Below are positions 3,746 through 38,154 of a DNA stretch of 64,000 nt, in pieces (positions within the stretch are counted from its first letter, which is position 1; each line of letters starts with the position of its first letter). The DNA lies in NCBI RefSeq assembly GCF_024700885.2, contig NZ_CP117016.1; one strand, 5' to 3'. This DNA is from Escherichia coli. GTDB lineage: Bacteria > Pseudomonadota > Gammaproteobacteria > Enterobacterales > Enterobacteriaceae. Below the pieces are notes generated by a model that worked only from the letters and a program-made list of their open reading frames with translations, was not told the origin of the DNA and did no database searches. Position numbers and translations under genes: made by a program.

Positions 3746-3747
3746 GT

Positions 3748-7696: not shown

Positions 7697-8468
7697 AGTG
7701 ACCTTTCAGCGCGTCGAGTTGCTGCAACACAAAATTCGCCAGATGCAGATAGTGATCCGGCAGGTTGTAGAGCAGGGTGGCGAAGCAGACCAGCCCCGCC
7801 AGCATGTTGATGGGAAAGCCGAGCGAAAAGAGGTTCAGCGGCGGCGCGATGCGGTTGAGCAGGCCAAAGCAGCCCTGCACAATCAGCATGATAAAGGTGG
7901 TCGGCAGCGCCAGCAGCGATGCGGACGCCAGCACCCAGCTAAAGGCCAGTGCGATGGTGCGCAGGGGTTGCGGATGCAGCGCGTTGCCAATCGGCCAGTA
8001 GGTGAAGCCCTTATACAAAACACTCACCAGCAACAGATGCCCGTCCATGGCAAAAAACAGCAGGATTGCGTAGACGTTGATTAACTCCGCCAGCACGGTG
8101 GTCGATGCGCCGCTGCTCGGGTCGTTCATCACCGCCATGCTCATCCCCATATTGAACGAGAGAATTTGCCCGGCCAGTTGCAGCGCCAGAAACAGAAACT
8201 GAAACATCAGCCCGAACAACATGCCCCATAATATTTGCTCCACCGTCAGGATCAGGCTGTTGAGCGATAGCAGGTCGTGGGGAATGGGATGGGGGATCAA
8301 CGGCGTGATGATGATTGCCAGCGCCAGCGACAAAATGATCCGCACACGCACGGTCAGGGCGCTGTTATCCAGCACCGGCACATAGCGCAGAAACGCCATA
8401 ATGCGCACGAAGGGAAACCACAGCCCCATCGCCAGATCCATCAGTTGCGTAACGTCGCTTGTACGCAT
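7686..8468 (-). CDS. lfiR: flagellar export apparatus protein FliR homologue
   Basis: ORF 7686..8519; start trimmed to MRTSDVTQLM so it follows the lfiQ stop; polytopic membrane protein. Confidence 0.8.
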   Translation of the reverse strand: MRTSDVTQLMDLAMGLWFPFVRIMAFLRYVPVLDNSALTVRVRIILSLALAIIITPLIPHPIPHDLLSLNSLILTVEQILWGMLFGLMFQFLFLALQLAGQILSFNMGMSMAVMNDPSSGASTTVLAELINVYAILLFFAMDGHLLLVSVLYKGFTYWPIGNALHPQPLRTIALAFSWVLASASLLALPTTFIMLIVQGCFGLLNRIAPPLNLFSLGFPINMLAGLVCFATLLYNLPDHYLHLANFVLQQLDALKGHYGG

Positions 8469-25837: not shown

Positions 25838-25913
25838 GCCGATATAGCTCAGTTGGTAGAGCAGCGCATTCGTAATGCGAAGGTCGTAGGTTCGACTCCT
25901 ATTATCGGCACCA
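25838..25913 (+). tRNA. thrW: tRNA-Thr (anticodon CGU)
   Basis: GCCGATATAGCTCAGTTGGTAGAGCAGCGCATTCGTAATGCGAAGGTCGTAGGTTCGACTCCTATTATCGGCACCA; cloverleaf with CGT anticodon; integration site for the downstream island. Confidence 0.95.
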
Positions 25914-26077
25914 TCACCTAGTTTTCCCAAGTCAACCCACATCAACAAAATCATTTAAAAACATATATATTACGTTGTTTTCATACGTTTGAGGTCAACC
26001 CTTGTCTCTTGAAATCAACACGCGGTTGGGGGCACAATCAGGGGCATGTTCTGTTCGGTCTAGGAAATGTGCCCCCA

Positions 26078-27268
26078 ATGATGCTGAATGCCCGCAAGGT
26101 TGAAGCTGCGAAAGGAAAAGAGAAGAGCTACAAGCTGTTTGATGGAGGTGGCCTATATCTTCAGGTCGAACCTAATGGCTCGCGTTACTGGCGTATGAAA
26201 TACCGTTTTGCTGGTAAAGAGAAACGATTGTCCTTTGGTGTTTATCCAACAGTCACACTTGCTGATGCCAGACAAAAACGAGAAGACGCGAAGAAACTAC
26301 TCGCAGCAGGTGAAGATCCCGGCGAAGTCAAAAAAGCCAAAAAGCAGGCTTTAAATGCAGCGATTGAGACACTTAACCCATTCAGAGAAGTGGCGTTAGA
26401 GTGGCACAAAATGAAATCACCCAAATGGTCTGAGGGCTATGCTTCCGACATCATTGAGGCATTCGAGAAAGACATTTTCCCGCATATTGGGCACAGACCT
26501 ATAGCTGATATTCAGCCCCTTGAACTGCTTGAAGTTCTGAGATTGATAGAAGCTCGAGGCGCTATGGAGAAAGCGAAGAAAGTCCGTCAGCGATGCGGTG
26601 AAGTTTTTCGCTATGCCATCGTAACGGGTAGGGCAATCTACAATCCGGCACCGGATCTTGCCAGTGCGATGCAAGGACATGAAGCAGTCCACTATCCATT
26701 CCTCAAAGCCAACGAACTACCGGAGTTCTTTAATGCCCTTAATTCTTATTCAGGAAGTCCAATTGTATTGTTGGGGGCGCATTTACTTATCCTGACAGGT
26801 CTACGAACTGGAGAACTACGAGCAGGTGAGTGGCGAGAGGTGGATTTTGATAATGCGGTGTGGGAGATCCCAAAAGAACGTATGAAAATGCGTAGGAGCC
26901 ATATTGTCCCGTTGTCAAAACAAGCATTATCCCATCTCAAAAGTTTGAAAGAACTAACTGGGAACTACCCGCTGATGTTCCCTGGACGCAACGATCCTAG
27001 CAAATTTATGAGTGAAGCAAGCATTAATCAGGTGTTTAAACGTATTGGATATGCAGGGCGTGTTACGGGGCATGGTTTCAGGCATACGATGAGTACAATC
27101 CTACATGAGAAAGGATTTAACAGCGCTTGGATTGAAACCCAGCTTGCTCATTCGGACAAAAACTCTATTCGTGGAATTTATAACCATGCCCAATATCTCG
27201 AAGGGAGAAGAGAAATGATGCAATGGTATGCTAATTATTTATCTGAGCTAATTGGTACTCATAAATGA
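26078..27268 (+). CDS. P4-type tyrosine integrase (tRNA-targeting)
   Basis: ORF 26009..27268; likely start at MMLNARK; C-terminal catalytic region with HGFRHT and conserved Tyr (RGIYNHAQYLEGRREMMQWY); directly beside thrW. Confidence 0.85.
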   Translation: MMLNARKVEAAKGKEKSYKLFDGGGLYLQVEPNGSRYWRMKYRFAGKEKRLSFGVYPTVTLADARQKREDAKKLLAAGEDPGEVKKAKKQALNAAIETLNPFREVALEWHKMKSPKWSEGYASDIIEAFEKDIFPHIGHRPIADIQPLELLEVLRLIEARGAMEKAKKVRQRCGEVFRYAIVTGRAIYNPAPDLASAMQGHEAVHYPFLKANELPEFFNALNSYSGSPIVLLGAHLLILTGLRTGELRAGEWREVDFDNAVWEIPKERMKMRRSHIVPLSKQALSHLKSLKELTGNYPLMFPGRNDPSKFMSEASINQVFKRIGYAGRVTGHGFRHTMSTILHEKGFNSAWIETQLAHSDKNSIRGIYNHAQYLEGRREMMQWYANYLSELIGTHK

Positions 27269-28089
27269 ATATTTTAAAAATTAATAATACTGATTCTCTG
27301 CTCAGAGATTACTACCAGTTGGATGAAGCTTCAGAAAAAATTGGTTGTAGTGAAAAGGATATACTCTGGTTTGCCAGAGAACGAGATGTAGAGCTATGCA
27401 TGGAATTCCATGATGATGAGTATGATGTTTCATGTGGTTTGAAGATTGATGGTCAAATGGATGAGTTCTTATCTAATCTGAAATATTTACCACGAGATAG
27501 AAATGGCAATATTATGTTGTCAGACTTAAGTTCTATAAGAATCCCTGATGAAGATAATTTAATTGATAAAAATGGTTTTATTCGATGTTTCATATCCGGT
27601 TTATGGGCTGTTGATTATGAATATAAAGATCTGTTAGTTAAGCATGAGGGGCAACCGGATTCCTGGCCTATTCATTTTCTACTGGCGGGTACGCCTAATA
27701 TAAATTGTAAGGTAATTCTTTATGTAAATTATGATGAAAAAGAAAATTATTATCTTTTTGAGGTTTTGTGGATTACAAAGGTACAGATTCAAAAATTCAT
27801 TGATATAGTCTTATGCGAACAAAAGCGGATAAAAAACGCCAATAAATATAAATCACAATCTGAGGCGCAAAAACAAAAACATGCTGTTCCTCGAGCTGAA
27901 ATACTCATGGCTATTATTTCGCTCTATCATCGTGATATGAGGCTAAGAAGAGAGAGTCCAGCAGCGATAGCTGATTATCTTTTTCAACATGCCAGTGAGT
28001 TCTGGCCTAAGACCGGAGAACCGCCTTTGAGCTATGATACTGTTGTTAGTTTGCTACGTAGTTGCATGAAAAACACTAAGTTTAACTAA
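27265..28089 (+). CDS. hypothetical protein (AT-rich island cargo, translationally coupled to integrase)
   Basis: 274-aa ORF whose ATG overlaps the integrase stop (ATGA); strongly AT-rich compared with flanking DNA; no recognisable motif. Confidence 0.55.
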   Translation: MNILKINNTDSLLRDYYQLDEASEKIGCSEKDILWFARERDVELCMEFHDDEYDVSCGLKIDGQMDEFLSNLKYLPRDRNGNIMLSDLSSIRIPDEDNLIDKNGFIRCFISGLWAVDYEYKDLLVKHEGQPDSWPIHFLLAGTPNINCKVILYVNYDEKENYYLFEVLWITKVQIQKFIDIVLCEQKRIKNANKYKSQSEAQKQKHAVPRAEILMAIISLYHRDMRLRRESPAAIADYLFQHASEFWPKTGEPPLSYDTVVSLLRSCMKNTKFN

Positions 28090-28214
28090 ATATTAACAAT
28101 TATTGTGGCTAATGATTTTGGATTTTTTTCATTAGTCACATTTTTCTCATTTATAACCTATGTTTTAATTTTCCGTGTTGAAGCCAATAGACTTAGATAA
28201 ACGGAGAATGATGA

Positions 28215-28421
28215 ATGTTATCTAAACATGATAATACTACTTTGCAACGACCTTCAATGGATTCTCTGATCGATATGAAGTTTATTACTTCCGATTGTTT
28301 ATTAAGTGATAAATGGATTTATCGATTGATTTCTCTGAATCGCTTTCCAAAACCTATAAAAATAGGTCGGATGTCACGATGGCGCGCTGCTGATTATTAT
28401 AAGTGGCGAGATGGGTTTTAA
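28215..28421 (+). CDS. alpA: AlpA/Vis-family phage transcriptional regulator (excisionase-like)
   Basis: 68 aa with the AlpA-like core ...RLISLNRFPKPIKIGRMSRWRAADYYKWRD. Confidence 0.7.
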   Translation: MLSKHDNTTLQRPSMDSLIDMKFITSDCLLSDKWIYRLISLNRFPKPIKIGRMSRWRAADYYKWRDGF

Positions 28422-28537
28422 GAAAACTCAGGTCAACATTTTGAGGGAATGAGAAATAAGGCAAGAGCAATTAATAAAGGGAATAGATTATCACCTACTC
28501 CCTAAGCCTTAATTGATAGTTAGTAATATTTAACTGA

Positions 28538-28711
28538 TTAGCCTTTAGGGTCAATCCCGCGTGATTGGAGTTCTTTGCGTAAAATTCTTTTAATCCAAGT
28601 TGCCAACGCGCTATCTCCATCTTTGCGCATTTCGTTTTCGAGTTGCAACCTAAAATCGTCGGTAAGACGCATTTGGAATGGTGGAGAACGTTTCTCTTGT
28701 GGTGTTGACAT
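28538..28711 (-). CDS. small Arc/MetJ-type (ribbon-helix-helix) DNA-binding protein, putative island repressor
   Basis: 57-aa minus-strand ORF (MSTPQEKRSPPFQMRLTDDFRLQLENEMRKDGDSALATWIKRILRKELQSRGIDPKG); below the ORF-track size cut-off; start codon overlaps the operator region. Confidence 0.45.
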   Translation of the reverse strand: MSTPQEKRSPPFQMRLTDDFRLQLENEMRKDGDSALATWIKRILRKELQSRGIDPKG

Positions 28712-28751
28712 GGTAATTACCCTAGAATATGATGACTACATGGTAATTACC
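28705..28751 (+). promoter_or_regulatory. sigma-70-like promoter (TTGACA-17-TATGAT) with two copies of the palindromic operator GGTAATTACC
   Basis: TTGACA at 28705-28710, 17-bp spacer, TATGAT at 28728-28733; catGGTAATTACC occurs at 28709-28721 and 28739-28751, 30 bp apart. Confidence 0.45.
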
Positions 28752-28842
28752 ATTGTAAGTATAGTTCGCTTGTAAAAGCAATGCCCGATTGTGCGGGAAC
28801 ACAAATCGGGCATTTAACCAACCGTTATAAGAGGTAACGAAG

Positions 28843-29019
28843 ATGGCTAAACAGAAGTGTACTTGGTTATTTGCGGCGATCAACCGCAGTCAACGCAATG
28901 CCCGTCCTGTGATGTTAAGGATCACCGCAGATAACGAGCGGTCAGCGCGGCGCAGACTTGCCCCGGACTATGTACTGAGCTTTGCCGGGCGCATTCCCTG
29001 CGGAGGTGAACATGCGTAA
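28843..29019 (+). CDS. small hypothetical protein (58 aa), first ORF of the rightward early transcript
   Basis: ATG with GAGG 8 nt upstream; MAKQKCTWLFAAINRSQRNARPVMLRITADNERSARRRLAPDYVLSFAGRIPCGGEHA; not in the ORF track (<60 aa). Confidence 0.3.
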   Translation: MAKQKCTWLFAAINRSQRNARPVMLRITADNERSARRRLAPDYVLSFAGRIPCGGEHA

Positions 29020-29371
29020 TTATCCGCACCCCGGCGAACGCTGGCAGCATGAACGTGGCTGGACGGTCACGATTATCCGATTAATAGAAGCATCGCCCTC
29101 TGTGGCACTGGTTAATCCTGAATTCAGCTGTGAAGTGCTGATACGTCATGACAGCGACAACCAGCTTTCTTCCTGCCCTCTGGCATGGTTTGAACAGCGG
29201 TATACGCGCCTGTTTGATGTACCGCTCTTTAAGCCTGCACCAGCTCCTGCAGGCGGTAGTGGTTCCGGCCCGCTGACACTGCATCCGTCTGTGCTATTTA
29301 TCCGCTGGCGGGAGCGTAGCATATGGCGTTCTGCTGAGCCTGACGACGGTCACTATTCAAAGTTTCTCTGA
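29012..29371 (+). CDS. hypothetical protein (island early region)
   Basis: ORF 28982..29371; ATG at 29012 with GGAGG 8 nt upstream; 119 aa, no recognisable motif. Confidence 0.4.
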   Translation: MRNYPHPGERWQHERGWTVTIIRLIEASPSVALVNPEFSCEVLIRHDSDNQLSSCPLAWFEQRYTRLFDVPLFKPAPAPAGGSGSGPLTLHPSVLFIRWRERSIWRSAEPDDGHYSKFL

Positions 29372-29402
29372 CAAAATACCGCTGAAAACGGAGTAATCCA
29401 CG

Positions 29403-29687
29403 ATGAATATTTCAAACGGGCACAACGGTGCTCAGGGCCACACTTTGCCTGAAAAACACAATACCGGTGCTTTTGCCTATGGGTTGTCAGAGGACAGTTT
29501 CGGAAAGCTGACCCGCGCAAGAAATGCCTGCGACATGCTCCAGCTTCTCTTTTCTGAATACCCGTCTCAGGCCGGAGCACTGGACGCTGGCTGTGCGCAT
29601 GGTGTCGCCGCGCTGATGGAGTACCTGCTGGCAGATTTGACGGATATTGCACACAGCTGCGCACTGATTGAAGGAGGTGCCAGATGA
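29403..29687 (+). CDS. hypothetical protein (island early region)
   Basis: 94-aa ORF, 4-nt overlap with the next ORF (operon-like). Confidence 0.4.
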   Translation: MNISNGHNGAQGHTLPEKHNTGAFAYGLSEDSFGKLTRARNACDMLQLLFSEYPSQAGALDAGCAHGVAALMEYLLADLTDIAHSCALIEGGAR

Positions 29688-30067
29688 ACCAGCCGCAGGT
29701 TTCCATTTTCCCGGCAGAAATGACCACCGCGCTTTACCGGCGGGCTATTGCTTCAGCATGGCGGCAGAAAATGCTGAACGAAACTGGCAGTGATCAGTAT
29801 GGTCCGCACAGCCTGACGGTGGAGCGTATTGAAATGGCCATTGCGCTGCATATCGAGTGCGTACTGATTAACGAGTACGGCGAAGTGCAGGGCGCCGCTG
29901 CCGCGCTGGCACTGCTGACTGACATGCTGGAGCCGTCACTGCTGACCGCGCCGCCGGTACTGACCGCGCGCGGCTGTGAAGTGATGGCGGAGATGTACCG
30001 CACGCTTCCGGCGGCCTTTGATGACTTCTGCAGTACCGGTGTGACGTTGTATGAGGGGGAAGTATGA
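29684..30067 (+). CDS. hypothetical protein (island early region, precedes primase)
   Basis: 127-aa ORF, 4-nt overlaps with both neighbours. Confidence 0.4.
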   Translation: MNQPQVSIFPAEMTTALYRRAIASAWRQKMLNETGSDQYGPHSLTVERIEMAIALHIECVLINEYGEVQGAAAALALLTDMLEPSLLTAPPVLTARGCEVMAEMYRTLPAAFDDFCSTGVTLYEGEV

Positions 30068-32736
30068 CAATACAGACGGTTACGCAGATTTCAGCCGCCG
30101 CACGGGGGAAATGGCCCGTTATTCTGCAGATGCTGCGTATTGATGTACCTGAAAACGGCAGGCACGGTCCCTGCCCGAAATGTGGGGGCAAGGATCGTTT
30201 TCGCCTTGATGACCTTGACGGGCGCGGGACGTGGATCTGCAGCCAGTGTGGCAATGGTGACGGTCTGGATCTGGTTAAGCTCGTAACCGGTTACAGCGTC
30301 AGAAAGGCTGCGCAGGAGGTGGCGCAGGTGCTTAATGTGCCGAATATGCAGGAACTGCCTGTTAAGCCTGCCAGACAAAAAGCCCCTAAACGCGACATGG
30401 GTCTTACCGTGGCGGCGCTGATGAAAGAGAGCCACACGGGAGAAAGCGCCTATCTGACAGGAAAAGGGTTCGCCGGATACCCGGCCTCTCTGACCGGAAG
30501 CGTGCAGCATATCAGCGGTAAGGATTTCCCTGCCGGTTCCCTGCTGTTACCACTCACGACCAACACCGGAGCCGTGACCGGTGCACAGCTTATCGCCCCG
30601 ACGGGTGAAAAAAGCATACTGCCCGGCAGCACGATGAAAGGCGCGTTTGTGTCGCTCAGCCCGTTACCGTCTGAACCACCGGTACAGGTGGTGATTACCG
30701 AAGGTTACGCTACGGCGCTGACGGTAAGTCAGCTCACTGCCGGATGCGTAGTGGCTGCCATATCTGCGGGCAACCTGCCCAATGTGGCGCAGTCGCTGCG
30801 GGCACGCTGGCCTGAGGTAAAAATTATCATCGCCGGTGATAACGATTTTCAGGACGGAGATGAGAATCCCGGCAGAGCCTTTGCTGAACGGGCGGCAAAA
30901 GCTGTTGGCGGCTGGATGACGCTGCCACCAGGAGAGATTAAGGCTGACTGGAATGACTTTCATCGGGAGCACGGTATTACCCGTGCCCGTGAAGCCTTTC
31001 GCAACGGTCTGGTACTGTGCGGGGAAGGCCGCACGCAACTGCCGCACGGGTTCCGTCTTACCCAGGAATATCTCTGGTATGAAAAGCAGGTACAGCGCAA
31101 CGGTGAGACGGAGATCCAGAACGTCAAAATATGCAGCCCGCTGCGCGTGACGGCAATCACCTGCGATGCCGATGGCGGTAACTTCGGACGACTGCTGGAA
31201 TGGGAAGATACGTGGGGTGAGTGTCGCCGCTGGGCGATGCCGATGGAAATGCTGAGCGGCAGTGGTGAGGAACTGCGCCGGGTACTGCTGGTTAACGGGC
31301 TGTCTTATATCAGCACCACCGGTGAGGCACGCGCACGCCTGATGGAATATATCTCACTGTGTAAACCGGAACGCCGCGTGACCTGCGTCAGTCGTACTGG
31401 CTGGCATGGTCAGGTTTACGTCCTGCAGGATGAGGTCAGCGGTGAAGGTGCAGAGGGTGTCATTCTCCAGACCACTTCCGTGCAGGGGCGTGATTTCCGC
31501 GTGTCGGGCACAACAGAGGAATGGCGGGAGCATGTATCCCGCTACTGTACCGGCAACTCCCGCGTGGCATTTGCTGTCAGCCTGGCCTTTGCTGCACCAC
31601 TGTTACGGCTGGTTGGTATGGACGGCGGCGGCTACCACCTCAAAGGGGAATCGACAGACGGTAAGACCACCACCATGAAAGCGGCAACCTCCGTCTGCGG
31701 CGGGCCTGACTACTGGCAGACATGGCGGGCCACCGGCAACGCGCTGGAGGGATGCGCCAGCCGCCGCAACGATGCCGCCATGATGCTTGATGAGATCCGG
31801 GAAGTTGACGGACGCGAGGCAGGCAATATCGCCTACATGCTGGCAAACGGTCAGGGCAAGGGCCGTGCCGGTACGGACGGTGAGCTGCGTACCCGTAAGC
31901 AGTGGCGCCTGTTGTTCTTTTCAACTGGCGAGTTGTCTCTGACCGAACATGCGGCAAAGGCCGGTGAGCGTACTTTTGCCGGGATGGAAGTCAGGATGAT
32001 CCAGATCCCCAGCGATTCCGGGAAGTTTGGCGTTTTTGAGGAGCTGCACGGCTTCGACAGCGGCAAGGCTCTGGCAGAGCATCTTGAATGGGCCACGTCC
32101 TGCTACTACGGTTCGCCGTTCCGGGAGTGGCTGAAAGCACTGACCGCTGATCTTAACGGACTAACGGCACAGGCAAAATCGCTGATGAAGGAATATGCTG
32201 CCGCCCTGACTCCGAAAGATGCAGGCAATCAGGTGGGCCGGGCTGTGAACCGCTTTGCTCTGGTGGCGATGGCAGGTGAACTGGCAACCCGTCTGGGTAT
32301 CACCGGCTGGCCTGAGGGTGAAGCACTGCGGGCAACCCGCGTCTGCCTGAACGCATGGCTGAAAGATCGCGGGCACACCGCCAATCAGGAAGATATCGCC
32401 GCACTGGAGCAGGTTCGCAGTTTCTTTACCGCGAATCAGTACAGCCGCTTTGCAGACTGGTATGACGAGCGCAACCGCCCCGGCAATATGGTGGGCTGGC
32501 GCAGGGTGGAGAAAGGCAGTACCGCGCAGGGCACGGAAGCTGTCACTACGTTCTATGTCATGCCGTCCGGCTGGAAAGAAATCTGCAGGGGATTTGACCC
32601 GCGCAAGGTGGCGCGTCTGTGCGCAGATCGTGGATACCTGCTGCCCTCCACAGATGGCAAACTCCAGACAACCATTCGCCCGCCAGAGATGAATCCCCGC
32701 AGGCTCTATGTCTTCAACAGCGAGGTGCCTGGTTAA
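30064..32736 (+). CDS. P4 alpha-type primase/helicase (zinc-binding primase domain, Toprim, P-loop NTPase)
   Basis: 890 aa; N-terminal Cys4 zinc motif (CPKCGGKDRF...CSQCGNGDG), Toprim-like acidic region, Walker A GESTDGKTT. Confidence 0.88.
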   Translation: MTIQTVTQISAAARGKWPVILQMLRIDVPENGRHGPCPKCGGKDRFRLDDLDGRGTWICSQCGNGDGLDLVKLVTGYSVRKAAQEVAQVLNVPNMQELPVKPARQKAPKRDMGLTVAALMKESHTGESAYLTGKGFAGYPASLTGSVQHISGKDFPAGSLLLPLTTNTGAVTGAQLIAPTGEKSILPGSTMKGAFVSLSPLPSEPPVQVVITEGYATALTVSQLTAGCVVAAISAGNLPNVAQSLRARWPEVKIIIAGDNDFQDGDENPGRAFAERAAKAVGGWMTLPPGEIKADWNDFHREHGITRAREAFRNGLVLCGEGRTQLPHGFRLTQEYLWYEKQVQRNGETEIQNVKICSPLRVTAITCDADGGNFGRLLEWEDTWGECRRWAMPMEMLSGSGEELRRVLLVNGLSYISTTGEARARLMEYISLCKPERRVTCVSRTGWHGQVYVLQDEVSGEGAEGVILQTTSVQGRDFRVSGTTEEWREHVSRYCTGNSRVAFAVSLAFAAPLLRLVGMDGGGYHLKGESTDGKTTTMKAATSVCGGPDYWQTWRATGNALEGCASRRNDAAMMLDEIREVDGREAGNIAYMLANGQGKGRAGTDGELRTRKQWRLLFFSTGELSLTEHAAKAGERTFAGMEVRMIQIPSDSGKFGVFEELHGFDSGKALAEHLEWATSCYYGSPFREWLKALTADLNGLTAQAKSLMKEYAAALTPKDAGNQVGRAVNRFALVAMAGELATRLGITGWPEGEALRATRVCLNAWLKDRGHTANQEDIAALEQVRSFFTANQYSRFADWYDERNRPGNMVGWRRVEKGSTAQGTEAVTTFYVMPSGWKEICRGFDPRKVARLCADRGYLLPSTDGKLQTTIRPPEMNPRRLYVFNSEVPG

Positions 32737-32769
32737 GGCTTTGCGTGAGTCTTATTTATTAAGGGTAAC

Positions 32770-32960
32770 AGGTGAAACAGGTGGAACAACCGTATTTTAC
32801 AGGGCTGAACCTGTTCCACCTTCTGAAATAGTGAGGTGGAACAGATGTAACGCCAGCCAATCCGCTGTTCCACCTTGTTACCCGCGATGTTCCACCGGTG
32901 CAGTGTATATAAATGCCTTATAAAACAAAGCCGTAACACATGTTTCACCTGTTCCACCGC
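32770..32960. repeat. iteron cluster (repeated GGTGGAACA/TGTTCCACC motif), candidate replication origin/crr
   Basis: At least six copies of the TGTTCCACC core in both orientations within about 190 bp directly downstream of the primase gene. Confidence 0.55.
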
Positions 32961-33046
32961 ATCAGGGACATAAAGCAGACTGAAACAGAGGGCATTTTTA
33001 TCTGGCTGGCTTTCATAGCCACGTCTGAATAACCGCAAGCGCCCGT

Positions 33047-33102
33047 TGTGCCAGCCACCACACACTGAACACCGATAGTGTGCTTGTGTCAGCCACGACA
33101 CA
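33047..33102 (+). promoter_or_regulatory. two TGT-N12-ACA dyads (Ogr/Delta-type activator sites), candidate late promoter
   Basis: TGTgccagccaccacACA (33047-33064) and TGTgtcagccacgacACA (33085-33102) upstream of the sid-like gene. Confidence 0.5.
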
Positions 33103-33136
33103 ATTGACGTAACGAACCAACCCGACAGGAGAAGTC

Positions 33137-33880
33137 ATGAACAATACCGCAGTAAATAACAACCTTTCCACTTTTCCGGCTGTAACGCAGCGGGCACTGG
33201 AAACCATGAACACAGCCAGAAACGCATGGCTTGAAGCACGTCGTCAGCAGAAAGCGGCAGCGGATAATATTGCGACAATCCGCCAGCGTCGCGCTGAAAT
33301 GGAAGCCACGACGAACACACTGAATGAGGAGTGGCGCACGCTGTTTCGTGAAAGTCAGGGCGTGATCTCAAAGGAAATGAAAAAACTGCGCACGGAAATT
33401 GCGCTGGGACGAGAAACGCTTGAGGATTTTGATGAGCTGCTGGCGGCTCAGGAAAGCGAAAATGCACTTTTGCCGCAGAAAGCTGCAGAATTAGCCGGAA
33501 AGTATATCCACGCGCATAACATTCTTGTGGATATTCGCGCAAAACAAATCTGGGAGGATTTTATGCAGTCGCATGGAAAAGTGCTTATTCAGACGCTGAG
33601 CCTGCTTAAATCCACAATGGGCCGGGAAGCCAGTGCCGTTGTGGGTGTGGTGAATTCAGTTAATGACCCGGACACAGTGCTGAAAGACTTTATTCATAAA
33701 TATATCACCAGACCGGCTCTGGCTAACGATGCGATGCCTGAGCAGGACCCGGTGTTTAAACTGGCGGGAGTTGCCCCGGATTATGCGGCGCGTCTGGATT
33801 TCAGTAATCAACTCTCTCCGGCAGCTATGCATAAAATTAAGGTTCGTCAGGAACTTGCTGAGAAGGAGAAAGCAGTATGA
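33137..33880 (+). CDS. Sid-like capsid size-determination (external scaffold) protein
   Basis: 247-aa helix-rich protein; first gene of the late operon downstream of the TGT-N12-ACA dyads and immediately upstream of the Psu-like gene; assignment by context and size. Confidence 0.45.
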   Translation: MNNTAVNNNLSTFPAVTQRALETMNTARNAWLEARRQQKAAADNIATIRQRRAEMEATTNTLNEEWRTLFRESQGVISKEMKKLRTEIALGRETLEDFDELLAAQESENALLPQKAAELAGKYIHAHNILVDIRAKQIWEDFMQSHGKVLIQTLSLLKSTMGREASAVVGVVNSVNDPDTVLKDFIHKYITRPALANDAMPEQDPVFKLAGVAPDYAARLDFSNQLSPAAMHKIKVRQELAEKEKAV

Positions 33881-34428
33881 CGGCCCGAGGCACGCCTGAC
33901 CAGGCACTTACCAGTTTTCGGAATGCCCGTATTCTGTGGGCCGGACATAATGAGAGCCGAAAAGCCGTTGAACAACAGATAACATCTCTCCTCGCTGCCA
34001 CAGAAAAACCAGCAGATTATGCCCGACAGCTCGAATTACTGCGGGAACGTCTGGATGTGCTGAAATGGCAAATTAACTGTGCTGCGCGCGAATGCATTTA
34101 CTCGCAGCATTTACTGATGGAGGCCTGCACAGAAGCCGCTCTCAGCAATTTTATGCAGGCGAATGGGGCAGCCCTGACATCTGCACTGGCTCCGTTCCTG
34201 AAGGGGCGCGGAGGGGTTGACGTTGCGTCCCGTATATTACGCAGTGCTCTGGTTCGCCAGCTGGCAATAACACCGCCTGAATTTGCCGGGGATTATCGTG
34301 AGATCCTGGATGAATCCGGTTTGATGCTTGACCCCGGGATGATTCGTGATTGCCAGGGTTCTTACACCCCGGCACAACATCTGCGTTTTCAGCAACGCCT
34401 GAATGACATTAACGATATACAGGAGTGA
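33877..34428 (+). CDS. Psu-like polarity-suppression / capsid-decoration protein
   Basis: 183 aa; motifs recalled from P4 Psu (LKWQINCAAR, HG.ALA.ALAP, TPAQHLRFQQR); 4-nt overlap with the sid-like gene. Confidence 0.65.
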   Translation: MTARGTPDQALTSFRNARILWAGHNESRKAVEQQITSLLAATEKPADYARQLELLRERLDVLKWQINCAARECIYSQHLLMEACTEAALSNFMQANGAALTSALAPFLKGRGGVDVASRILRSALVRQLAITPPEFAGDYREILDESGLMLDPGMIRDCQGSYTPAQHLRFQQRLNDINDIQE

Positions 34429-34433
34429 TATTA

Positions 34434-34706
34434 ATGGCACTTAAATGTCCGGAATGCGGTACAGTTGCACACGCCAGAACAGCAGCCTATGAAGCTCCGT
34501 CAGTTAAACGCTCGTGGTATCAGTGCCAGAATCTGGAATGTTCCTGCACATTTACGGCACTGGAGAGTGTGGATAAGATAATCATGAAACCCCGGCGCAA
34601 TGAACAGGAACCAGACAAATCACAAACCCCGGTAAAACAACAGCAAACGCTCAATCGCTATGGCTCCGCGTCAAAACTGTCAAGCCGTCAGCAGATTCCT
34701 GTCTGA
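34434..34706 (+). CDS. Ogr/Delta-family zinc-finger late transcriptional activator
   Basis: ORF 34425..34706; start trimmed to MALKCPECG with AGGAG upstream; Cys4 pattern CPECG...CQNLEC typical of Ogr/Delta. Confidence 0.75.
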   Translation: MALKCPECGTVAHARTAAYEAPSVKRSWYQCQNLECSCTFTALESVDKIIMKPRRNEQEPDKSQTPVKQQQTLNRYGSASKLSSRQQIPV

Positions 34707-34727
34707 TTAGAAAAAAAATGCCCACGT

Positions 34728-34753
34728 AATCCCGGTCGAGTACTGGGATTTTT
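34728..34753 (+). terminator. rho-independent terminator-like hairpin after the late operon
   Basis: aatccc-ggtcgagtact-gggatt stem-loop followed by a T run. Confidence 0.4.
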
Positions 34754-35289
34754 AACACCTTACCCCTGGCTGGCCTGAGAGCGCATGAGTGCATGTCTAT
34801 GGCGCATGAAAACGCATGAGTCTCATGCACCATTTTTGACGCGAAAGCCCTTGTGTGGTGGCTTCTGAGACGATTAATGAGGTGCATGAAAACCAGTCTG
34901 TTAAGTGAAGCGGGAAGGCGTGCGGGGCTGCGCACGTAGCAGGGTTAAATGGTCAATTCTGGCGCAGCTCACGACATTAAGTCAGCCTCAATAGATGTAC
35001 GTGTTGGTAGGGGTAATTCGCTACTTTTTTGTATCCTAAATTGTATGGTTTGATGCTGATCGTTTCTTCACCGCACCTGCAGAGATATCAATTCAATGTG
35101 GACAAAAATGAGTCTGGCTCTTTCCGTATCACTAGAATTGCCAGTATTGTTAGGGATGATGCCCATATCATACGGAGGGAGCCAGTGGGGGCGATTGCGC
35201 GTGGAAAGTGCTTTGGATTTATTCATCGGTTTTATGATTCTACATAAGGAGCAAAGGTACTTGTATCGTATGAAAAAAAATAGTATAGA

Positions 35290-35520
35290 TATAATGCTCC
35301 TTACGCGTTATGGCATAGTTATATGCTAGTCGGGCGATTAGCCAGACTCGAACTTATTGAACGGTATTAGGGTTGCGCTTGGTGTGCCTCTGGATTGCAC
35401 TCCATGCTGTCGCGCAATCCAGAGGCACACCAAGCGCTTCCTTTAGGTAAGTGAGTAAAAACAGCACCTTCTTCGATTTATGATGAAGGTGCTGCAATCG
35501 TAACGTTTTTTGTATACACG
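35290..35520 (+). ncRNA. candidate retron msr-msd non-coding RNA
   Basis: Non-coding stretch directly upstream of the effector-RT pair with a perfect 24-bp stem (35375-35398 / 35414-35437, 15-nt loop) and a second 10-bp stem (35462-35471 / 35485-35494); exact ends and a1/a2 repeats not resolved. Confidence 0.55.
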
Positions 35521-35529
35521 GATAGTATA

Positions 35530-36498
35530 GTGGCTGAGACATACGAAGATAAAGTTGCTAATCATGTTTCAGAGTGGGAAATGGAAAATTTCCGTGTATG
35601 TTATGATGATCAGGTTATTTTCTTATGTGGTGCGGAAGTACTTCCTCAAGGAAGTGTTCAGACTTCAATGAGAGGGCATTTTTATCACTATTGCCTGAAT
35701 AAAAATAAAGATATAGCTGATAAAATAATTCTTGCCGAAAACTTCAAAAAATATCTTCAAAATAATCATTATCCAGACTTAATAACTTTTGAGCATGATG
35801 TTGCAAGTATATCTAGTTTAGTTGTTATTTTCTTGGAAAGCAGTGGTTCAATTGCTGAGTTAGGTGTTTTCTGTAATATTAGTGATGTCAATAAAAAATT
35901 ATTGATATTTGTTCCATCAGATGAAGTTGAAGGTGACAAGAAAGAGTCTTTCATTTACTTAGGGCCTTTATTGTTTTTAAAAGAAAAGGTCAATGAAAAA
36001 GCATTTAAGATTTATCCAAAACCCACTAATGGTTCTGATTACTCCGAGCATTTAGAGATTATGGCTGATGACTTGGCTGAACTATTACCTAGAAGTGGTA
36101 AGTTTGAAAGCTTCGATCCTGACAATTTAGGGCATATAGCTTTTCTTATATGCAGAATTGTGCATTTAGTAATGCCTATTAAGCTAAAGGAAATATTAAA
36201 TTGTTTAAAAATAATAGGTATCAATAAATATACTCTGACTGAGGTTGAAAGAATTTTGTTTTTATTGGAAACATTGGGTTTTATAAATATTTATCCGTAT
36301 GGCGATTTAAAATACTATTATTCAATGCAAGCCAGGCAAAATCTTAAATTAGGGAAAAATAAAACCGGATTCACAATCGATGAGGCTGGTATTTTTACTG
36401 ATATTAGTGTTTTTATCAATGACAATAAATTATGTAGTGATAAAAAAAGACGGCTGGTTTTGAAAGGCATTAAGGAGAAGCATAATGGACATAATTAA
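35530..36498 (+). CDS. retron effector candidate: nucleoside 2-deoxyribosyltransferase-like (NDT-like) protein with C-terminal putative DNA-binding region
   Basis: 322 aa (GTG start in the ORF track); Rossmann-like N-terminus with ESSGSIAELG motif resembling the NDT-family catalytic Glu region; overlaps the RT gene by 14 nt; AT-rich. Confidence 0.6.
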   Translation: MAETYEDKVANHVSEWEMENFRVCYDDQVIFLCGAEVLPQGSVQTSMRGHFYHYCLNKNKDIADKIILAENFKKYLQNNHYPDLITFEHDVASISSLVVIFLESSGSIAELGVFCNISDVNKKLLIFVPSDEVEGDKKESFIYLGPLLFLKEKVNEKAFKIYPKPTNGSDYSEHLEIMADDLAELLPRSGKFESFDPDNLGHIAFLICRIVHLVMPIKLKEILNCLKIIGINKYTLTEVERILFLLETLGFINIYPYGDLKYYYSMQARQNLKLGKNKTGFTIDEAGIFTDISVFINDNKLCSDKKRRLVLKGIKEKHNGHN

Positions 36499-37417
36499 AA
36501 AAATCGCAGATGAAACTCTAATGCCGGTATCAAAAGTATCTGCTTTTATATTTACAGCCCCATATAGATATAAAGTATATCCCATCCCCAAAAGGAATGG
36601 TGGGTTTAGGGAGATTGCTCAACCGTCAAGGGCATTAAAGTTTATGCAAAGGATTGTTATTGCTGAACTAGAGAAAGTACTTAAGGTTCATGAAAACGCA
36701 TATGCTTATGTCAAAGGACGTAGTATAAAAGATAATGTGGAAAAGCATCAAAGAAACTCTTATATTTTGAAAGTTGATTTCTGCGACTTTTTTAATAGCA
36801 TAAACCCTTACGACCTTGAGTTATGTTTAAAAAACAATGGGTTAGACTCATTGTTAAGCTCACAAGAATTATTGAATAAACTTTTTTTCTATAAGAAAAG
36901 TAAAAGAGGTGCTTTATCAATGAGCATCGGGGCACCTAGTTCTCCATTTTTGTCAAATGCGATTATGTATAAGTTTGATTCAGTCATTAGTGATATGTGT
37001 TCAAATAAAAATATTACTTATACAAGATATGCTGATGATCTTACATTTTCTACTAATGAAAAAGGTATTTTGTATGAATTCATACATGAAATAGATAAAG
37101 TTCTTGAGGAGATAGATAGTCCTAAATTAAAACTAAATGATAAGAAAACCATATTTGCATCTAAAAAATGCAATCGTCATATAACAGGAATTGTTATTAA
37201 TAACGAAGAAAAACTTTCAATTGGTAGAGATAAAAAACGTTACTTAAGTAGTTTAATTCATAAATTCTCGCTTAATGCACTTAATGAGGAAGGAGTTGAA
37301 CATTTAAAAGGGTATTTGGCGTATGTAAATAAAATTGAACCTTCATTCATTAGCAGAATGAAAAGGAAATATGGAGTCGAAGTTGTCAACTCCATAATCA
37401 CATTTAATCCATTATAA
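36485..37417 (+). CDS. retron-type reverse transcriptase
   Basis: 310 aa; RT motifs YRYKVYPIPKRNGGFREIAQPSRALK, VDFCDFFNSI, GAPSSPFLSNAIM, TRYADDLTFS (YADD active site), HITGIVI; distant resemblance to the Ec86 RT. Confidence 0.9.
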   Translation: MDIIKKIADETLMPVSKVSAFIFTAPYRYKVYPIPKRNGGFREIAQPSRALKFMQRIVIAELEKVLKVHENAYAYVKGRSIKDNVEKHQRNSYILKVDFCDFFNSINPYDLELCLKNNGLDSLLSSQELLNKLFFYKKSKRGALSMSIGAPSSPFLSNAIMYKFDSVISDMCSNKNITYTRYADDLTFSTNEKGILYEFIHEIDKVLEEIDSPKLKLNDKKTIFASKKCNRHITGIVINNEEKLSIGRDKKRYLSSLIHKFSLNALNEEGVEHLKGYLAYVNKIEPSFISRMKRKYGVEVVNSIITFNPL

Positions 37418-37894
37418 ATGTGAACTTATTATATTTATAATGGTTGTGCTTTTTTCTTGTACCTTAGGGGTGTAAAAGAATGTCATCATGAAGATAATTA
37501 AAAAATGAATGGCAATAAGAGTAATAGGTAACATTTTTTCAATATCACTTAAATGGCGATGCCTTTTTTGTGTAATAACTTCCTCTTCTCTTTTGAAAGG
37601 AGTTATACCTATCTTGACCTCCATCTCCTGAATTACTGTAAACTTAGCAGCATTAATTCTTTTATAGGAAGTAATTAGATTTATCCAATAGATATTAATT
37701 ACGACTCCAGCGAGAGAGATTAAGATTACCCAAATAGGCTGTATTGTTGGCTTTAAAGAAAAATATCCAACAAGCGGTAAAATAGAAGAGTTTAAGGCTA
37801 ATAAAAATGTATTTGACTTAAGTCTTCGATCACTTATTCTATCCGCCATCTCAACGCATGTTTTATATATTTCTATGACTTTATCATCCGTCAC
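37412..37894 (-). CDS. small three-TM membrane protein of unknown function (candidate defence/abortive-infection effector)
   Basis: 160 aa with three predicted hydrophobic helices; AT-rich; convergent with the RT gene, its stop codon overlapping the RT's last codon. Confidence 0.55.
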   Translation of the reverse strand: MTDDKVIEIYKTCVEMADRISDRRLKSNTFLLALNSSILPLVGYFSLKPTIQPIWVILISLAGVVINIYWINLITSYKRINAAKFTVIQEMEVKIGITPFKREEEVITQKRHRHLSDIEKMLPITLIAIHFLIIFMMTFFYTPKVQEKSTTIINIISSHL

Positions 37895-38137
37895 TAATAG
37901 TATCCTTATAAATTTCTGAGTTGTTCAAATAAATGTTATCATATATTTTTATCAACGTAATATGTATTTTTACGTATTTTTAACTGTGAGAGATACATAG
38001 TGATTGTTGGGTGCATGTACAATCCTTGATACTTAACAATGAAAGCGTAGTTGTGGGGGGGGGGCATATTTGGGGGCATTACTATTTAATCTTTCTTGAT
38101 TTTTATTATAAAACAACTGGTTGTATTGATGTTTTGT

Positions 38138-38154
38138 TCCTATTATCGCACCAT
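38138..38154 (+). repeat. attR: degenerate direct repeat of the thrW 3' end (island right boundary)
   Basis: tcctattatcg-caccat matches the tRNA 3' end tcctattatcggcaccat with one missing G. Confidence 0.5.

What the first reader, a model, noticed from the sequence alone, without database searches (positions are those of the whole stretch)
25838..38154. About 12.2 kb P4-like satellite integrated at tRNA-Thr (thrW), with attL/attR and compositional mosaicism
Directly 3' of thrW lies an integrase gene, and a degenerate copy of the tRNA 3' end (tcctattatcg-caccat, 38138-38154) marks the far boundary. In between are the hallmark P4-like genes (AlpA, alpha-type primase/helicase, Sid-like, Psu-like, Ogr/Delta) plus AT-rich cargo. 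In E. coli K-12 this tRNA carries the unrelated CP4-6 prophage, so this is a different occupant of the same integration hotspot. Gene order (int ... primase ... sid-psu-delta ... cargo ... attR) puts the cargo between the late module and att-int in the circular form, which is where P4-like satellites are reported to carry defence systems.
Basis: partly seen in the sequence, partly recalled or inferred. Interest (0 to 1): 0.6.

Follow-up and report, generated by a model that had tools for sequence, protein, structure and literature searches.

The report
P4-like satellite carrying a retron
This is a 12.2-kb P4-type phage satellite inserted at the thrW tRNA gene of E. coli whose variable cargo slot holds a complete anti-phage retron; it is a well-supported but ordinary example of a known kind of element.

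Summary
tRNA-Thr(CGU) lies at 25838-25913. Its 3' end (25897-25914) is repeated, one base short, at 38138-38154, and K-12 chromosomal homology resumes exactly there. Between the repeats are a P4-type integrase, an AlpA-like HTH gene, an Icd-like gene, a DUF5375 gene, a primase/helicase, Sid, Psu and Ogr/Delta homologues. I also found P4-like ori iterons, two TGT-N12-ACA late-promoter dyads and a candidate cos site.

- The AT-rich cargo is a complete type II-A1 (St85/Sen2-family) retron: msr-msd RNA, NDT-like toxin and RT. A convergent 8xMP membrane-protein gene follows it.
- Only the N-terminal primase domain resembles P4 alpha. The helicase half is DUF927/Cch-type.
- No epsilon homologue was found.
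- All genes are co-directional, unlike P4.

Sibling elements with 99% identical backbones at thrW carry DRT3 or DprA-PRTase in the same slot, and they diverge right at the candidate cos. This matches the published P4 defence hotspot. The identical element occurs in about 21 complete E. coli genomes and is already annotated gene by gene.

Mobility is untested. alpA carries a nonsense codon and attR is eroded.

The verdict is a new member of a known kind, of low-to-moderate interest. The most novel lead is the conserved pairing of 8xMP genes with retron RTs.

The parts
25838..25913 (+). thrW, tRNA-Thr(CGU); integration target
   Evidence: ARAGORN; Rfam tRNA 71.8 bits
25897..25914 (+). attL core TCCTATTATCGGCACCAT (3' end of the tRNA)
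26078..27268 (+). P4-family tyrosine integrase (396 aa from the RefSeq start; the ORF opens at 26009)
   Evidence: phrog_1 2e-74 and NF007246 1e-87; 43% identity to P4 Int over 388 aa
27265..28089 (+). orf274, an AT-rich gene of unknown function. Its start overlaps the int stop. It sits in the position P4 cII occupies but is not homologous to cII
28215..28421 (+). AlpA-like HTH regulator/excisionase homologue, cut to 68 aa by a TAA at 28419-28421 (96 aa in sibling elements)
   Evidence: phrog_66 1.3e-5; Pfam Phage_AlpA i-E 2.5e-4; alignment to EC0900
28538..28711 (-). 57-aa ORF with a weak Arc-like repressor match
   Evidence: phrog_228 0.003; annotated as a hypothetical protein in RefSeq
28843..29019 (+). 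Icd-like cell-division inhibitor (matches P4 DNA at 8192-8329)
   Evidence: NF033153 5.5e-24; 54% identity to the P4 region
29012..29687 (+). Two small early genes (119 aa and 94 aa) of unknown function, in the position of P4 epsilon and ORF151
   Evidence: phrog_30862 and phrog_14861; no similarity to P4 epsilon
29684..30067 (+). DUF5375 protein, homologue of P4 ORF106
   Evidence: phrog_5991; 40% identity to P4 ORF106
30064..32736 (+). Primase/helicase: zinc ribbon plus Toprim (P4-alpha-like, residues 6-316) fused to a DUF927/Cch-type helicase
   Evidence: phrog_1139 2e-183; Pfam Zn_Ribbon_Prim, Toprim_3 and DUF927 3e-90; 39% identity to P4 alpha in the N-terminal part only; NF047345 Cch1 helicase 1e-16
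32771..32958 (.). Candidate replication origin: 6 copies of TGTTCCACC plus 2 of TGTTTCACC, on both strands
   Evidence: Only one other copy of TGTTCCACC in the 64-kb window; the P4 type-1 ori iteron is TGTTCACC
33047..33102 (+). Two TGT-N12-ACA dyads (TGTGCCAGCCACCACACA and TGTGTCAGCCACGACACA) 35-90 nt upstream of sid; candidate Ogr/Delta-activated late promoter
   Evidence: about 0.1 expected by chance in the 441-nt gap. The motif's link to P2/P4 late promoters is from my own knowledge
33137..33880 (+). Sid homologue (capsid size determination)
   Evidence: phrog_6165 1e-91, the family of P4 Sid itself; PDB 7jw1_E Sid 1.1e-9
33877..34428 (+). Psu homologue (capsid decoration, Rho inhibitor)
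   Evidence: phrog_6366 9e-69; PDB 3rx6 Psu 5e-13; 29% identity to P4 Psu
34434..34706 (+). Single-domain Ogr/Delta zinc-finger late activator
   Evidence: NF007241 5e-16; 43% identity to the N-terminal domain of P4 Delta
34908..34936 (+). Candidate cos: AAGCGGGAAGGCGTGCGGGGCTGCGCAC (compare P4 AAGCGGGCGGGCGAGGCGGGGAAAGCAC). Sibling elements diverge from GGGGCTG onward
   Evidence: the canonical P2/P4 19-mer is absent at up to 3 mismatches
35065..35187 (-). Remnant of the 3' end of a P2-like portal gene Q, about 130 nt to the right of the candidate cos, as in P2
   Evidence: blastn to Fels-2 Q 7e-7; tblastx to P2 Q, 44% over 41 aa, 4.5e-6
35295..35461 (+). Retron ncRNA: a1/a2 stem, msr (35296-35365) and msd hairpin (35375-35437)
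   Evidence: Rfam msr 53.4 bits (gathering score 52); STnc400-like msd 53 bits; fold -83.4 kcal/mol, z -8.0
35530..36498 (+). Retron effector: NDT-like toxin of the St85/STM3845 (RcaT) family
   Evidence: NF038232 224.5 bits (cut-off 100); PADLOC NDT_II-A 2e-79; distant match to the Ec86 effector 7v9x
36485..37417 (+). Retron reverse transcriptase (St85 family, clade 1)
   Evidence: NF038233 347 bits (cut-off 235); PADLOC RT_II-A 7e-123; PDB Ec78 RT 3e-77
37412..37894 (-). 8xMP / RipA-family membrane protein, convergent with the RT; the two gene ends overlap by 6 nt
   Evidence: Pfam PF24838 1.8e-28; the same synteny recurs in diverged homologues
38136..38154 (+). attR: GTTC-CTATTATCG-CACCAT, an eroded copy of the tRNA 3' end (1-nt deletion shared with siblings, plus a 5-nt deletion)

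Best explanation
The interval is an integrated P4-like phage satellite of about 12.24 kb at thrW.

What the sequence shows:
- A P4-family tyrosine integrase sits next to the tRNA, and the element is bounded by a direct repeat of the tRNA 3' end.
- An early operon runs alpA-like, icd-like, small ORFs, DUF5375, primase/helicase, and ends at a cluster of P4-like iterons.
- A late operon, sid-psu-delta, is preceded by two TGT-N12-ACA dyads.
- A cos-like sequence follows delta.
- Beyond cos lies a swappable cargo slot. In this strain it holds a complete type II-A1 (St85/Sen2-family) retron and an 8xMP membrane-protein gene.

Inferred mechanism, by homology with P4 and Retron-Sen2:
- On infection or induction of a P2-like helper, Delta and the helper's Ogr switch on the late genes.
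- Sid forces the helper's capsid protein into small capsids.
- Psu decorates the capsid and blocks Rho.
- The helper terminase cuts at cos and packages the 12-kb genome.
- In the lysogen, the retron RT copies msd into msDNA, and the RT-msDNA complex holds the NDT-like toxin inactive.
- Phage factors that disturb the msDNA release the toxin and abort the infection. This protects the host population, the satellite and possibly its helper.

This particular copy may be poorly mobile or immobile, because alpA carries a nonsense codon and attR is eroded.
For: - Boundaries.
- P4 homology gene by gene: int 43%, icd 54%, ORF106 40%, alpha N-terminus 39%, psu 29%, delta 43%. Sid and Psu match the solved P4 proteins and P4's own PHROG families.
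- Candidate ori: eight iterons that differ from the P4 iteron by one extra base.
- Late-promoter dyads.
- Candidate cos: similar to the P4 cos, it is the exact point where sibling cargos diverge, and it is followed by a P2 gpQ remnant.
- Cargo swapping on about 99% identical backbones at the same site: retron, DRT3a/b, DprA+PRTase.
- A sister element with the same architecture at leuX carries a different St85-family retron.
- Retron parts: msr reaches the Rfam gathering score, and the RNA fold has z -8. Both proteins score far above the NCBIfam cut-offs. PADLOC assigns type II-A.
- Literature: P4-like hotspot adjacent to cos, including retrons (PMC9122126). Retron-Eco3 inside the P2-mobilised phiR73 (PMC6868368). 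Retron-Sen2 as a tripartite toxin/antitoxin (bioRxiv 10.1101/2020.06.22.160168 and .160242). Type II-A1 definition (PMC7736814).
Against: - No epsilon homologue was detected.
- The helicase half of the primase is unrelated by sequence to P4 alpha.
- The canonical P2/P4 cos 19-mer is absent. The candidate 19-mer was found in only one IMG/VR contig, which is itself a satellite, so no matching helper is known.
- Rfam found no P4 cI/C4-type immunity RNA.
- The gene order is not among those listed for P4-like elements in PMC8628076.
- alpA is truncated and attR carries two deletions.
- All retron-bearing copies that I inspected share the same unusual right flank. This fits vertical descent rather than repeated integration.
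- Nothing about expression, msDNA, excision or packaging can be tested in silico.
Confidence: 0.85

Rival explanations
1. The element is a decayed, immobile remnant of a satellite, in effect a fixed chromosomal defence islet. It is kept only for its retron and inherited vertically or by flanking homologous recombination.
For: - There is a nonsense codon in alpA: 68 aa here against 96 aa in siblings.
- attR has a 1-nt deletion and an extra 5-nt deletion compared with EC0900.
- The retron-bearing copies inspected all have the same truncated yagP and the same 3.7-kb flank block.
- Frankly degraded derivatives exist in which the int N-terminus is fused to delta.
- alpA pseudogenes are reported as frequent in P4-like elements (PMC8628076).
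Against: - All other backbone ORFs are intact, and the backbone is 99-100% conserved across about 60 genomes.
- The HTH part of AlpA is retained.
- int, sid, psu, delta, the primase, the iterons and cos are all present.
- The 12.2-kb size fits a small P2-derived capsid (P4 is 11.6 kb).
- The three different cargos on one backbone show recent exchange at cos.
Confidence: 0.35
2. The element is a PICI-type island (EcCI) rather than a P4-like satellite. PICIs have an int-alpA-primase layout and hijack lambdoid helpers.
For: - The order int, AlpA-like gene, then a primase fused to a DUF927/Cch-type helicase, all co-directional, resembles Gram-negative PICIs (my own knowledge).
- A P22/Sf-like prophage shares the thrW site in one strain.
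Against: - Sid, Psu and Ogr/Delta homologues are present, and two match solved P4 proteins.
- The iterons are P4-like.
- There is a P2/P4-like cos with a P2 gpQ remnant beside it.
- No PICI packaging-redirection genes appeared in the family searches.
Confidence: 0.05
3. The attR repeat is the ancient thrW scar (ptwF-type) left by an earlier occupant, and the satellite's real right end lies elsewhere. In that case the retron and 8xMP cargo would be chromosomal island DNA and not satellite cargo.
For: K-12 has a 47-bp thrW repeat at the same chromosomal position, next to yagP, at the end of CP4-6.
Against: - There is no other copy of the att core in the window.
- Sibling elements keep the backbone and change only the DNA between cos and this repeat.
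- An IMG/VR contig and the L012-L016 derivatives carry delta, cos, retron, 8xMP and the att core as one 93-98% identical block in other contexts.
- The shared 1-nt deletion distinguishes this attR from the K-12 repeat.
Confidence: 0.05

Closest known systems
Satellite phage P4 (NC_001609)
   Same: - It has a homologous integrase, an Icd/kil-region gene, ORF106 (DUF5375), the primase N-terminal domain, Sid, Psu and Delta.
- Its ori iterons are TGTTCACC, against TGTTCCACC here.
- It has a GC-rich cos downstream of the late operon, with accessory genes beyond cos.
- It integrates at the 3' end of a tRNA gene, and it is about 12 kb long.
   Different: - Order and orientation differ. The P4 prophage runs att-int-cII-(beta,gop)-cos-(psu,delta,sid)<- ->alpA..alpha-att. 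Here every gene is co-directional: att-int-orf274-alpA..primase-sid-psu-delta-cos-cargo-att.
- The late genes run sid-psu-delta, not sid-delta-psu.
- Delta has one domain here (90 aa against 166 aa).
- The helicase half is DUF927, not the P4 alpha C-terminus.
- There is no epsilon and no recognisable cI RNA.
- The target is thrW, not leuX.
- The cargo is a retron rather than gop/beta/cII.
Retronphage phiR73 carrying Retron-Eco3 (Ec73), a P4-like element at selC
   Same: It is a P4-like satellite whose cargo is a type II-A1 retron with the accessory ORF between msr-msd and the RT. It was shown to be mobilised by P2 (PMC6868368; PMC7736814 Table 1).
   Different: It uses a different tRNA target (selC). 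No 8xMP gene is mentioned for Ec73 in the papers read.
Defence hotspot of P4-like satellites (Rousset et al. 2022, PMC9122126)
   Same: It is a variable slot directly next to cos that holds retrons, RM systems and other defences, with a different system on otherwise similar satellites. Here the slot holds a retron, DRT3 or DprA+PRTase.
   Different: That survey extracted genes between psu and an integrase found within 10 genes downstream. In this architecture the integrase is at the other end of the prophage and attR closes the slot. Such copies would be captured only if another integrase happened to lie downstream.
Retron-Sen2 (St85) of Salmonella and Retron-Vmi1
   Same: The organisation is the same: msr-msd, a roughly 320-aa NDT-like effector (RcaT/STM3845 family), then the RT. 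The msd hairpin resembles Rfam STnc400. Both proteins pass the NCBIfam St85 models.
   Different: This is a different allele in a different genomic context (satellite cargo). It carries an additional convergent 8xMP gene that is not part of the described tripartite system.
CP4-6 cryptic prophage of E. coli K-12
   Same: It occupies the same thrW site and is bounded on the right by a thrW repeat next to yagP.
   Different: It is an unrelated 34-kb element with a 47-bp repeat, and its integrase (intF) lies at the distal end.

Membership tests
P4-like satellite (core set of de Sousa & Rocha, PMC8628076: int, psu, delta, sid, alpA, epsilon, alpha) | P4-type integrase | tested here: met
   43% identity to P4 Int over 388 aa, E 1e-102
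P4-like satellite (core set of de Sousa & Rocha, PMC8628076: int, psu, delta, sid, alpha, epsilon, alpA) | Sid homologue | tested here: met
   phrog_6165 1e-91, the same family as P4 Sid; PDB 7jw1_E 1.1e-9
P4-like satellite (core set of de Sousa & Rocha, PMC8628076: int, psu, delta, sid, alpA, epsilon, alpha) | Psu homologue | tested here: met
   phrog_6366 9e-69; PDB 3rx6 5e-13
P4-like satellite (core set of de Sousa & Rocha, PMC8628076: int, psu, delta, sid, alpA, epsilon, alpha) | Delta (Ogr-type zinc finger) | tested here: met
   NF007241 5e-16; 43% identity to the P4 Delta N-terminal domain
P4-like satellite (core set of de Sousa & Rocha, PMC8628076: int, psu, delta, sid, alpA, epsilon, alpha) | AlpA homologue | tested here: met
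   The match is weak: Pfam Phage_AlpA i-E 2.5e-4, phrog_66 1.3e-5. The gene carries a premature stop compared with siblings
P4-like satellite (core set of de Sousa & Rocha, PMC8628076: int, psu, delta, sid, alpA, epsilon, alpha) | Epsilon (helper derepression protein) | tested here: not met
   P4 epsilon belongs to phrog_10016, while the ORFs in that position hit phrog_14861 and phrog_30862. BLASTP gave no alignment and Pfam gave nothing. The authors' own HMM was not available
P4-like satellite (core set of de Sousa & Rocha, PMC8628076: int, psu, delta, sid, alpA, epsilon, alpha) | Alpha (primase/helicase) | tested here: inconclusive
   Residues 6-316 are 39% identical to P4 alpha. The remaining roughly 570 residues (DUF927) show no similarity to alpha
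P4-like satellite (core set of de Sousa & Rocha, PMC8628076: int, psu, delta, sid, alpA, epsilon, alpha) | Conserved P4 gene order (int-psu-delta-sid-alpA-epsilon-alpha, or the listed variants) | tested here: not met
   The order here is int-alpA-primase-sid-psu-delta, all on one strand. The same order is found at leuX in strain ESY002
P4-like satellite (core set of de Sousa & Rocha, PMC8628076: int, psu, delta, sid, alpA, epsilon, alpha) | cos site shared with P2-type helpers, and helper-dependent packaging | tested here: inconclusive
   A cos-like sequence lies at 34908-34936 with a gpQ remnant beside it. The canonical 19-mer is absent and no matching helper was found. Packaging itself cannot be tested with these tools
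Type II-A1 retron (St85/Sen2 family; Mestre et al., PMC7736814) | Retron-type RT of clade 1 | tested here: met
   NF038233 347.4 bits against a cut-off of 235; PADLOC RT_II-A 7e-123
Type II-A1 retron (St85/Sen2 family; Mestre et al., PMC7736814) | Contiguous msr-msd ncRNA with an a1/a2 stem and an msd hairpin | tested here: met
   Rfam msr 53.4 bits (gathering score 52). The minimum-free-energy fold shows the closing stem, two msr hairpins and a 24-bp msd hairpin, with z -8.0
Type II-A1 retron (St85/Sen2 family; Mestre et al., PMC7736814) | NDT-like effector gene between the ncRNA and the RT | tested here: met
   NF038232 224.5 bits against a cut-off of 100; PADLOC NDT_II-A 2e-79
Type II-A1 retron (St85/Sen2 family; Mestre et al., PMC7736814) | msDNA synthesis, toxin neutralisation and phage defence | not testable with these tools
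   Needs an msDNA gel, toxicity assays and plaque assays
PICI (Gram-negative phage-inducible chromosomal island) | No P4 late genes; own packaging-redirection module; lambdoid helper | tested here: not met
   Sid, Psu, Delta and a P2-type cos context are present
8xMP octameric membrane protein family (Pfam PF24838) | Match to the family profile | tested here: met
   i-E 1.8e-28, covering 134 of 136 model positions

The most novel reading that the evidence does not exclude
The 8xMP (RipA-family) membrane protein gene at 37412-37894 may be more than a bystander. It could be a conserved fourth component, or a co-travelling single-gene partner, of one sublineage of clade-1 (II-A1/I-A) retrons. The 8xMP family as a whole could be an unrecognised membrane effector of anti-phage systems.

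Evidence:
- The convergent arrangement, with the gene ends overlapping the RT, persists in homologues only 44%, 43% and 33% identical, in unrelated flanks (L017, L018-20, L026).
- In other bacteria 8xMP genes sit directly downstream of short ThsB-like TIR genes (five independent loci) or an NB-ARC gene.
- PADLOC v2 has no model for the family, and I found no paper linking it to defence.

A lesser novelty is the co-directional architecture (int-alpA-primase[DUF927]-sid-psu-delta-cos-cargo-att, without epsilon). It looks like a common but undescribed architectural subtype of P4-like satellites in E. coli.
Probability: 0.35. Interest if true: 0.55.

Novelty: new member of a known kind. Interest (0 to 1): 0.3.

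Why it matters
The element adds little that is new. P4-like satellites with defence hotspots, and a retron riding in a P4-like satellite (phiR73), have been known for years. This exact element is present and annotated gene by gene in about 21 complete E. coli genomes.

It is useful in three ways:
- It is a clean worked example in which three defence systems swap at the cos junction on a single thrW backbone.
- It shows that a co-directional, epsilon-less architecture with a DUF927 helicase exists at thrW and leuX. Searches of the form 'psu followed by int' can miss this architecture.
- It points to the 8xMP family as a candidate defence-linked membrane protein that could be tested cheaply.

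Tried and rejected
- The canonical P2/P4 cos 19-mer GGCGAGGCGGGGAAAGCAC has no match at up to 3 mismatches. A cos-like variant was found by eye and by comparing siblings instead.
- An exact scan of IMG/VR for the candidate 19-mer found one contig, itself a satellite, so no helper was identified.
- Megablast of the whole element against phage genomes matched only the tRNA/att segment. Distant blastn gave only the Fels-2 Q fragment and one unrelated small hit.
- Rfam at E<=1 gave no P4 cI/C4 or IsrK-type RNA. The weak symR, miRNA and plastid hits were dismissed as chance or as the msd hairpin.
- Epsilon was sought with tblastn, BLASTP, PHROGs and Pfam, and nothing was found.
- The generic sigma-70 promoter and terminator scan was no better than shuffles and was not used.
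- The phiR73 paper (PMC208067) is not held, so I could not compare gene order with phiR73.
- Literature searches for '8xMP', 'RipA octameric' and the RefSeq protein accessions found nothing relevant.
- The PICI reading was rejected because Sid, Psu and Delta are present.
- The 'ancient scar' reading of attR was rejected because the cargo travels with the backbone and with the att core in other contexts.

Full report
**1. Observation**

ARAGORN finds a single tRNA in the window, tRNA-Thr(CGT), at 25838-25913. Rfam agrees. The tRNA's last 18 bases, TCCTATTATCGGCACCAT (25897-25914), recur one G short at 38138-38154. The pattern has no other match in 64 kb and none in 100 shuffles.

BLAST against the K-12 thrW region shows that chromosomal homology (the yagP flank) starts exactly at 38138 and runs to 38511 at 96%. 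The repeat is therefore the right junction, and the insert is 12,241 bp long. In K-12 the same site holds the unrelated 34-kb CP4-6, bounded by a 47-bp thrW repeat next to yagP.

**2. Backbone anatomy**

All backbone genes lie on the + strand.

- The integrase (26078-27268) is 43% identical to P4 Int.
- A 274-aa AT-rich ORF overlaps the int stop codon. It has no match in NCBIfam, PHROGs, PADLOC, Pfam or PDB sequences.
- Next come a weak AlpA-family HTH gene, an Icd-like gene that matches P4 DNA at 8192-8329, two small ORFs, and a DUF5375 gene homologous to P4 ORF106.
- The 890-aa primase/helicase matches P4 alpha only over residues 6-316 (39% identity). The rest is a DUF927 domain with a Cch-type helicase signature.
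- Directly after the primase, TGTTCCACC occurs six times and TGTTTCACC twice within 190 bp. There is only one other copy of TGTTCCACC in the window, and the P4 ori iteron is TGTTCACC. I read this cluster as the origin.
- Two near-identical TGT-N12-ACA dyads lie 35-90 nt upstream of sid. This is the spacing I know from Ogr/Delta-dependent late promoters (own knowledge).
- The 247-aa protein is a Sid homologue. It falls in the same PHROG family as P4 Sid and matches the PDB Sid chain 7jw1_E at 1e-9.
- The 183-aa protein is Psu (PDB 3rx6, 5e-13).
- The 90-aa protein is a single-domain Ogr/Delta.
- No epsilon homologue was found.

**3. cos and the cargo junction**

The canonical P2/P4 cohesive end is absent. 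However, AAGCGGGAAGGCGTGCGGGGCTGCGCAC at 34908-34936 resembles the P4 sequence AAGCGGGCGGGCGAGGCGGGGAAAGCAC.

About 130 nt to its right, on the minus strand, lies a remnant of the 3' end of a P2-type portal gene Q. It matches Fels-2 by blastn (7e-7) and P2 by tblastx (44% over 41 aa). This is the arrangement found at the left end of P2.

Sibling elements stay 98-99% identical up to ...GGCGTGCGGGGCTG and then differ. The swap point is therefore at cos, as reported for P4-like hotspots (PMC9122126).

**4. Cargo**

- Rfam finds msr at 35296-35365 (53.4 bits; gathering score 52), followed by an msd-like hairpin.
- The 186-nt RNA folds into a closing a1/a2 stem, two msr hairpins and a long msd hairpin (z -8.0).
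- The 322-aa protein is a St85/STM3845-family NDT-like effector, and the 310-aa protein is a St85-family RT. Both score far above the NCBIfam cut-offs, and PADLOC assigns type II-A.
- The closest solved RT is Ec78. The effector is distantly related to the Ec86 effector.
- The layout (ncRNA, effector, RT) is that of Retron-Sen2, Retron-Vch2 and Retron-Eco3, which is type II-A1 (PMC7736814).
- Convergent with the RT, with the two gene ends overlapping by 6 nt, is a 160-aa 8xMP/RipA-family membrane protein gene (Pfam PF24838).

**5. Relatives**

- The full element is 99.9-100% identical in 21 complete E. coli genomes. One further genome has a 92%-identical copy covering 93% of the query. RefSeq already names the retron genes, psu and ogr/delta.
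- The backbone alone covers at least 80% of the query in 60 of 5,426 genomes.
- At the same thrW site, backbones 98.6-99.2% identical carry Drt3a/Drt3b (EC0900, PEC1003) or DprA plus a phosphoribosyltransferase (PSJ-36) in place of the retron.
- The block from icd to cos, at about 98.7% identity, is also joined to a different integrase at leuX. That element has the same co-directional order and a different St85-family retron.
- Judging from evenly spaced rows of the ranking, roughly 300 genomes hold this block.
- In strain elppa4 a P22/Sf-like prophage lies between thrW and the satellite.
- Derivatives with the int N-terminus fused to delta still keep delta, cos, retron, 8xMP and att at 93.5% identity.

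**6. Comparison with P4**

The P4 prophage order is att-int-cII-(beta,gop)-cos-(psu,delta,sid) leftward, then alpA...alpha rightward, then att. Here the order is att-int-orf274-alpA...primase-sid-psu-delta-cos-cargo-att. The linear order, however, is not one of those listed for P4-like elements in PMC8628076. The psu-to-int extraction used in PMC9122126 would not reach the integrase in this layout.

By the seven-gene core definition the element has five clear components, a partial alpha and no epsilon. It works like P4 and belongs to the P4-like satellites in the broad sense, as an architectural variant.

**7. Mechanism**

Integration at thrW, the gene content and the cargo swapping are shown by sequence. 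Helper dependence, capsid size reduction by Sid, Rho inhibition by Psu, cos cleavage, msDNA synthesis and toxin release on infection are all inferred from P4 and from Retron-Sen2 and Retron-Eco3 (PMC6868368; bioRxiv 10.1101/2020.06.22.160168 and .160242).

There are signs of decay in this copy. A TAA codon shortens AlpA from 96 to 68 aa. attR lacks one G, as in the sibling elements, and also lacks five further bases. In the two retron-bearing strains whose flanks I inspected, 1190 and elppa4, the right flank is the same, which fits vertical descent.

**8. Side finding: 8xMP**

The 8xMP family has 1,893 representatives at E<=1e-3. Homologues 44%, 43% and 33% identical to the window protein are again convergent with, and overlap, the end of a clade-1 retron RT. 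Their flanks are unrelated.

Other members lie directly downstream of short ThsB-like TIR genes in five independent loci, and one lies downstream of an NB-ARC gene. PADLOC has no model for the family, and I found no paper that links it to defence. This is a lead and has not been demonstrated.

**9. Verdict**

The element is a new member of a known kind, of low-to-moderate interest.

Noticed in passing
window 37412-37894 (-); also L017, L018-L020, L026, L024/L025, L028-L031, L035: The 8xMP/RipA-family membrane protein gene is convergent with the retron RT, and the gene ends overlap. The same arrangement recurs in homologues 33-44% identical. Elsewhere the family sits just downstream of short TIR genes or an NB-ARC gene. 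It is absent from PADLOC v2.
   Followed up: partly
window 27265-28089 (+): An AT-rich (0.32-0.34 GC) 274-aa ORF is translationally coupled to int through an ATGA overlap. Its family is restricted to Enterobacterales and always follows this integrase type. It has no family, PDB or fold assignment. It occupies the slot that cII holds in P4 but is not homologous to cII.
   Followed up: partly
window 35065-35187 (-): A fragment of the 3' end of a P2-type portal gene Q, with an internal stop, sits just right of the candidate cos. It looks like a scar of recombination between a P2-like helper and the satellite at cos.
   Followed up: yes
window 28419-28421: A TAA codon replaces the GAA seen in sibling elements and shortens the AlpA-like protein from 96 to 68 aa. 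It is present in the retron-bearing variant.
   Followed up: yes
window 32771-32958: A dense cluster of TGTTCCACC/TGTTTCACC iterons (8 copies, both orientations) lies right after the primase gene. The motif is one base longer than the P4 ori iteron TGTTCACC, even though the helicase/DNA-binding half of the primase shows no similarity to P4 alpha.
   Followed up: partly
window 38512-~42400: K-12 homology (truncated yagP) stops at 38511. A block of about 3.7 kb follows before paoD: a ykgR fragment, a LysR regulator at 39080-39964 (-), an alpha/beta hydrolase and an MFS transporter. K-12 and the DRT3 and DprA-PRTase strains inspected lack this block.
   Followed up: partly
L012-L016 (loci around P0020): These are degraded derivatives of the same satellite lineage. 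A deletion fuses the integrase N-terminus to Ogr/Delta, yet delta, cos, retron, 8xMP and the att core are kept at 93.5% identity, next to another integrase and IS elements.
   Followed up: partly
L033 (E. coli elppa4) 1-4200: A P22/Sf-like prophage end (tailspike and O-antigen acyltransferase genes) lies between thrW and the satellite. thrW can therefore hold tandem occupants.
   Followed up: no
window 28422-28843: The gap between alpA and icd holds the best sigma-70-like promoter match of the element (28705-28733, 11 of 12 positions) and a minus-strand 57-aa Arc-like ORF. In P4 and P1 an immunity RNA precedes icd/kil, but Rfam found no such RNA here.
   Followed up: no
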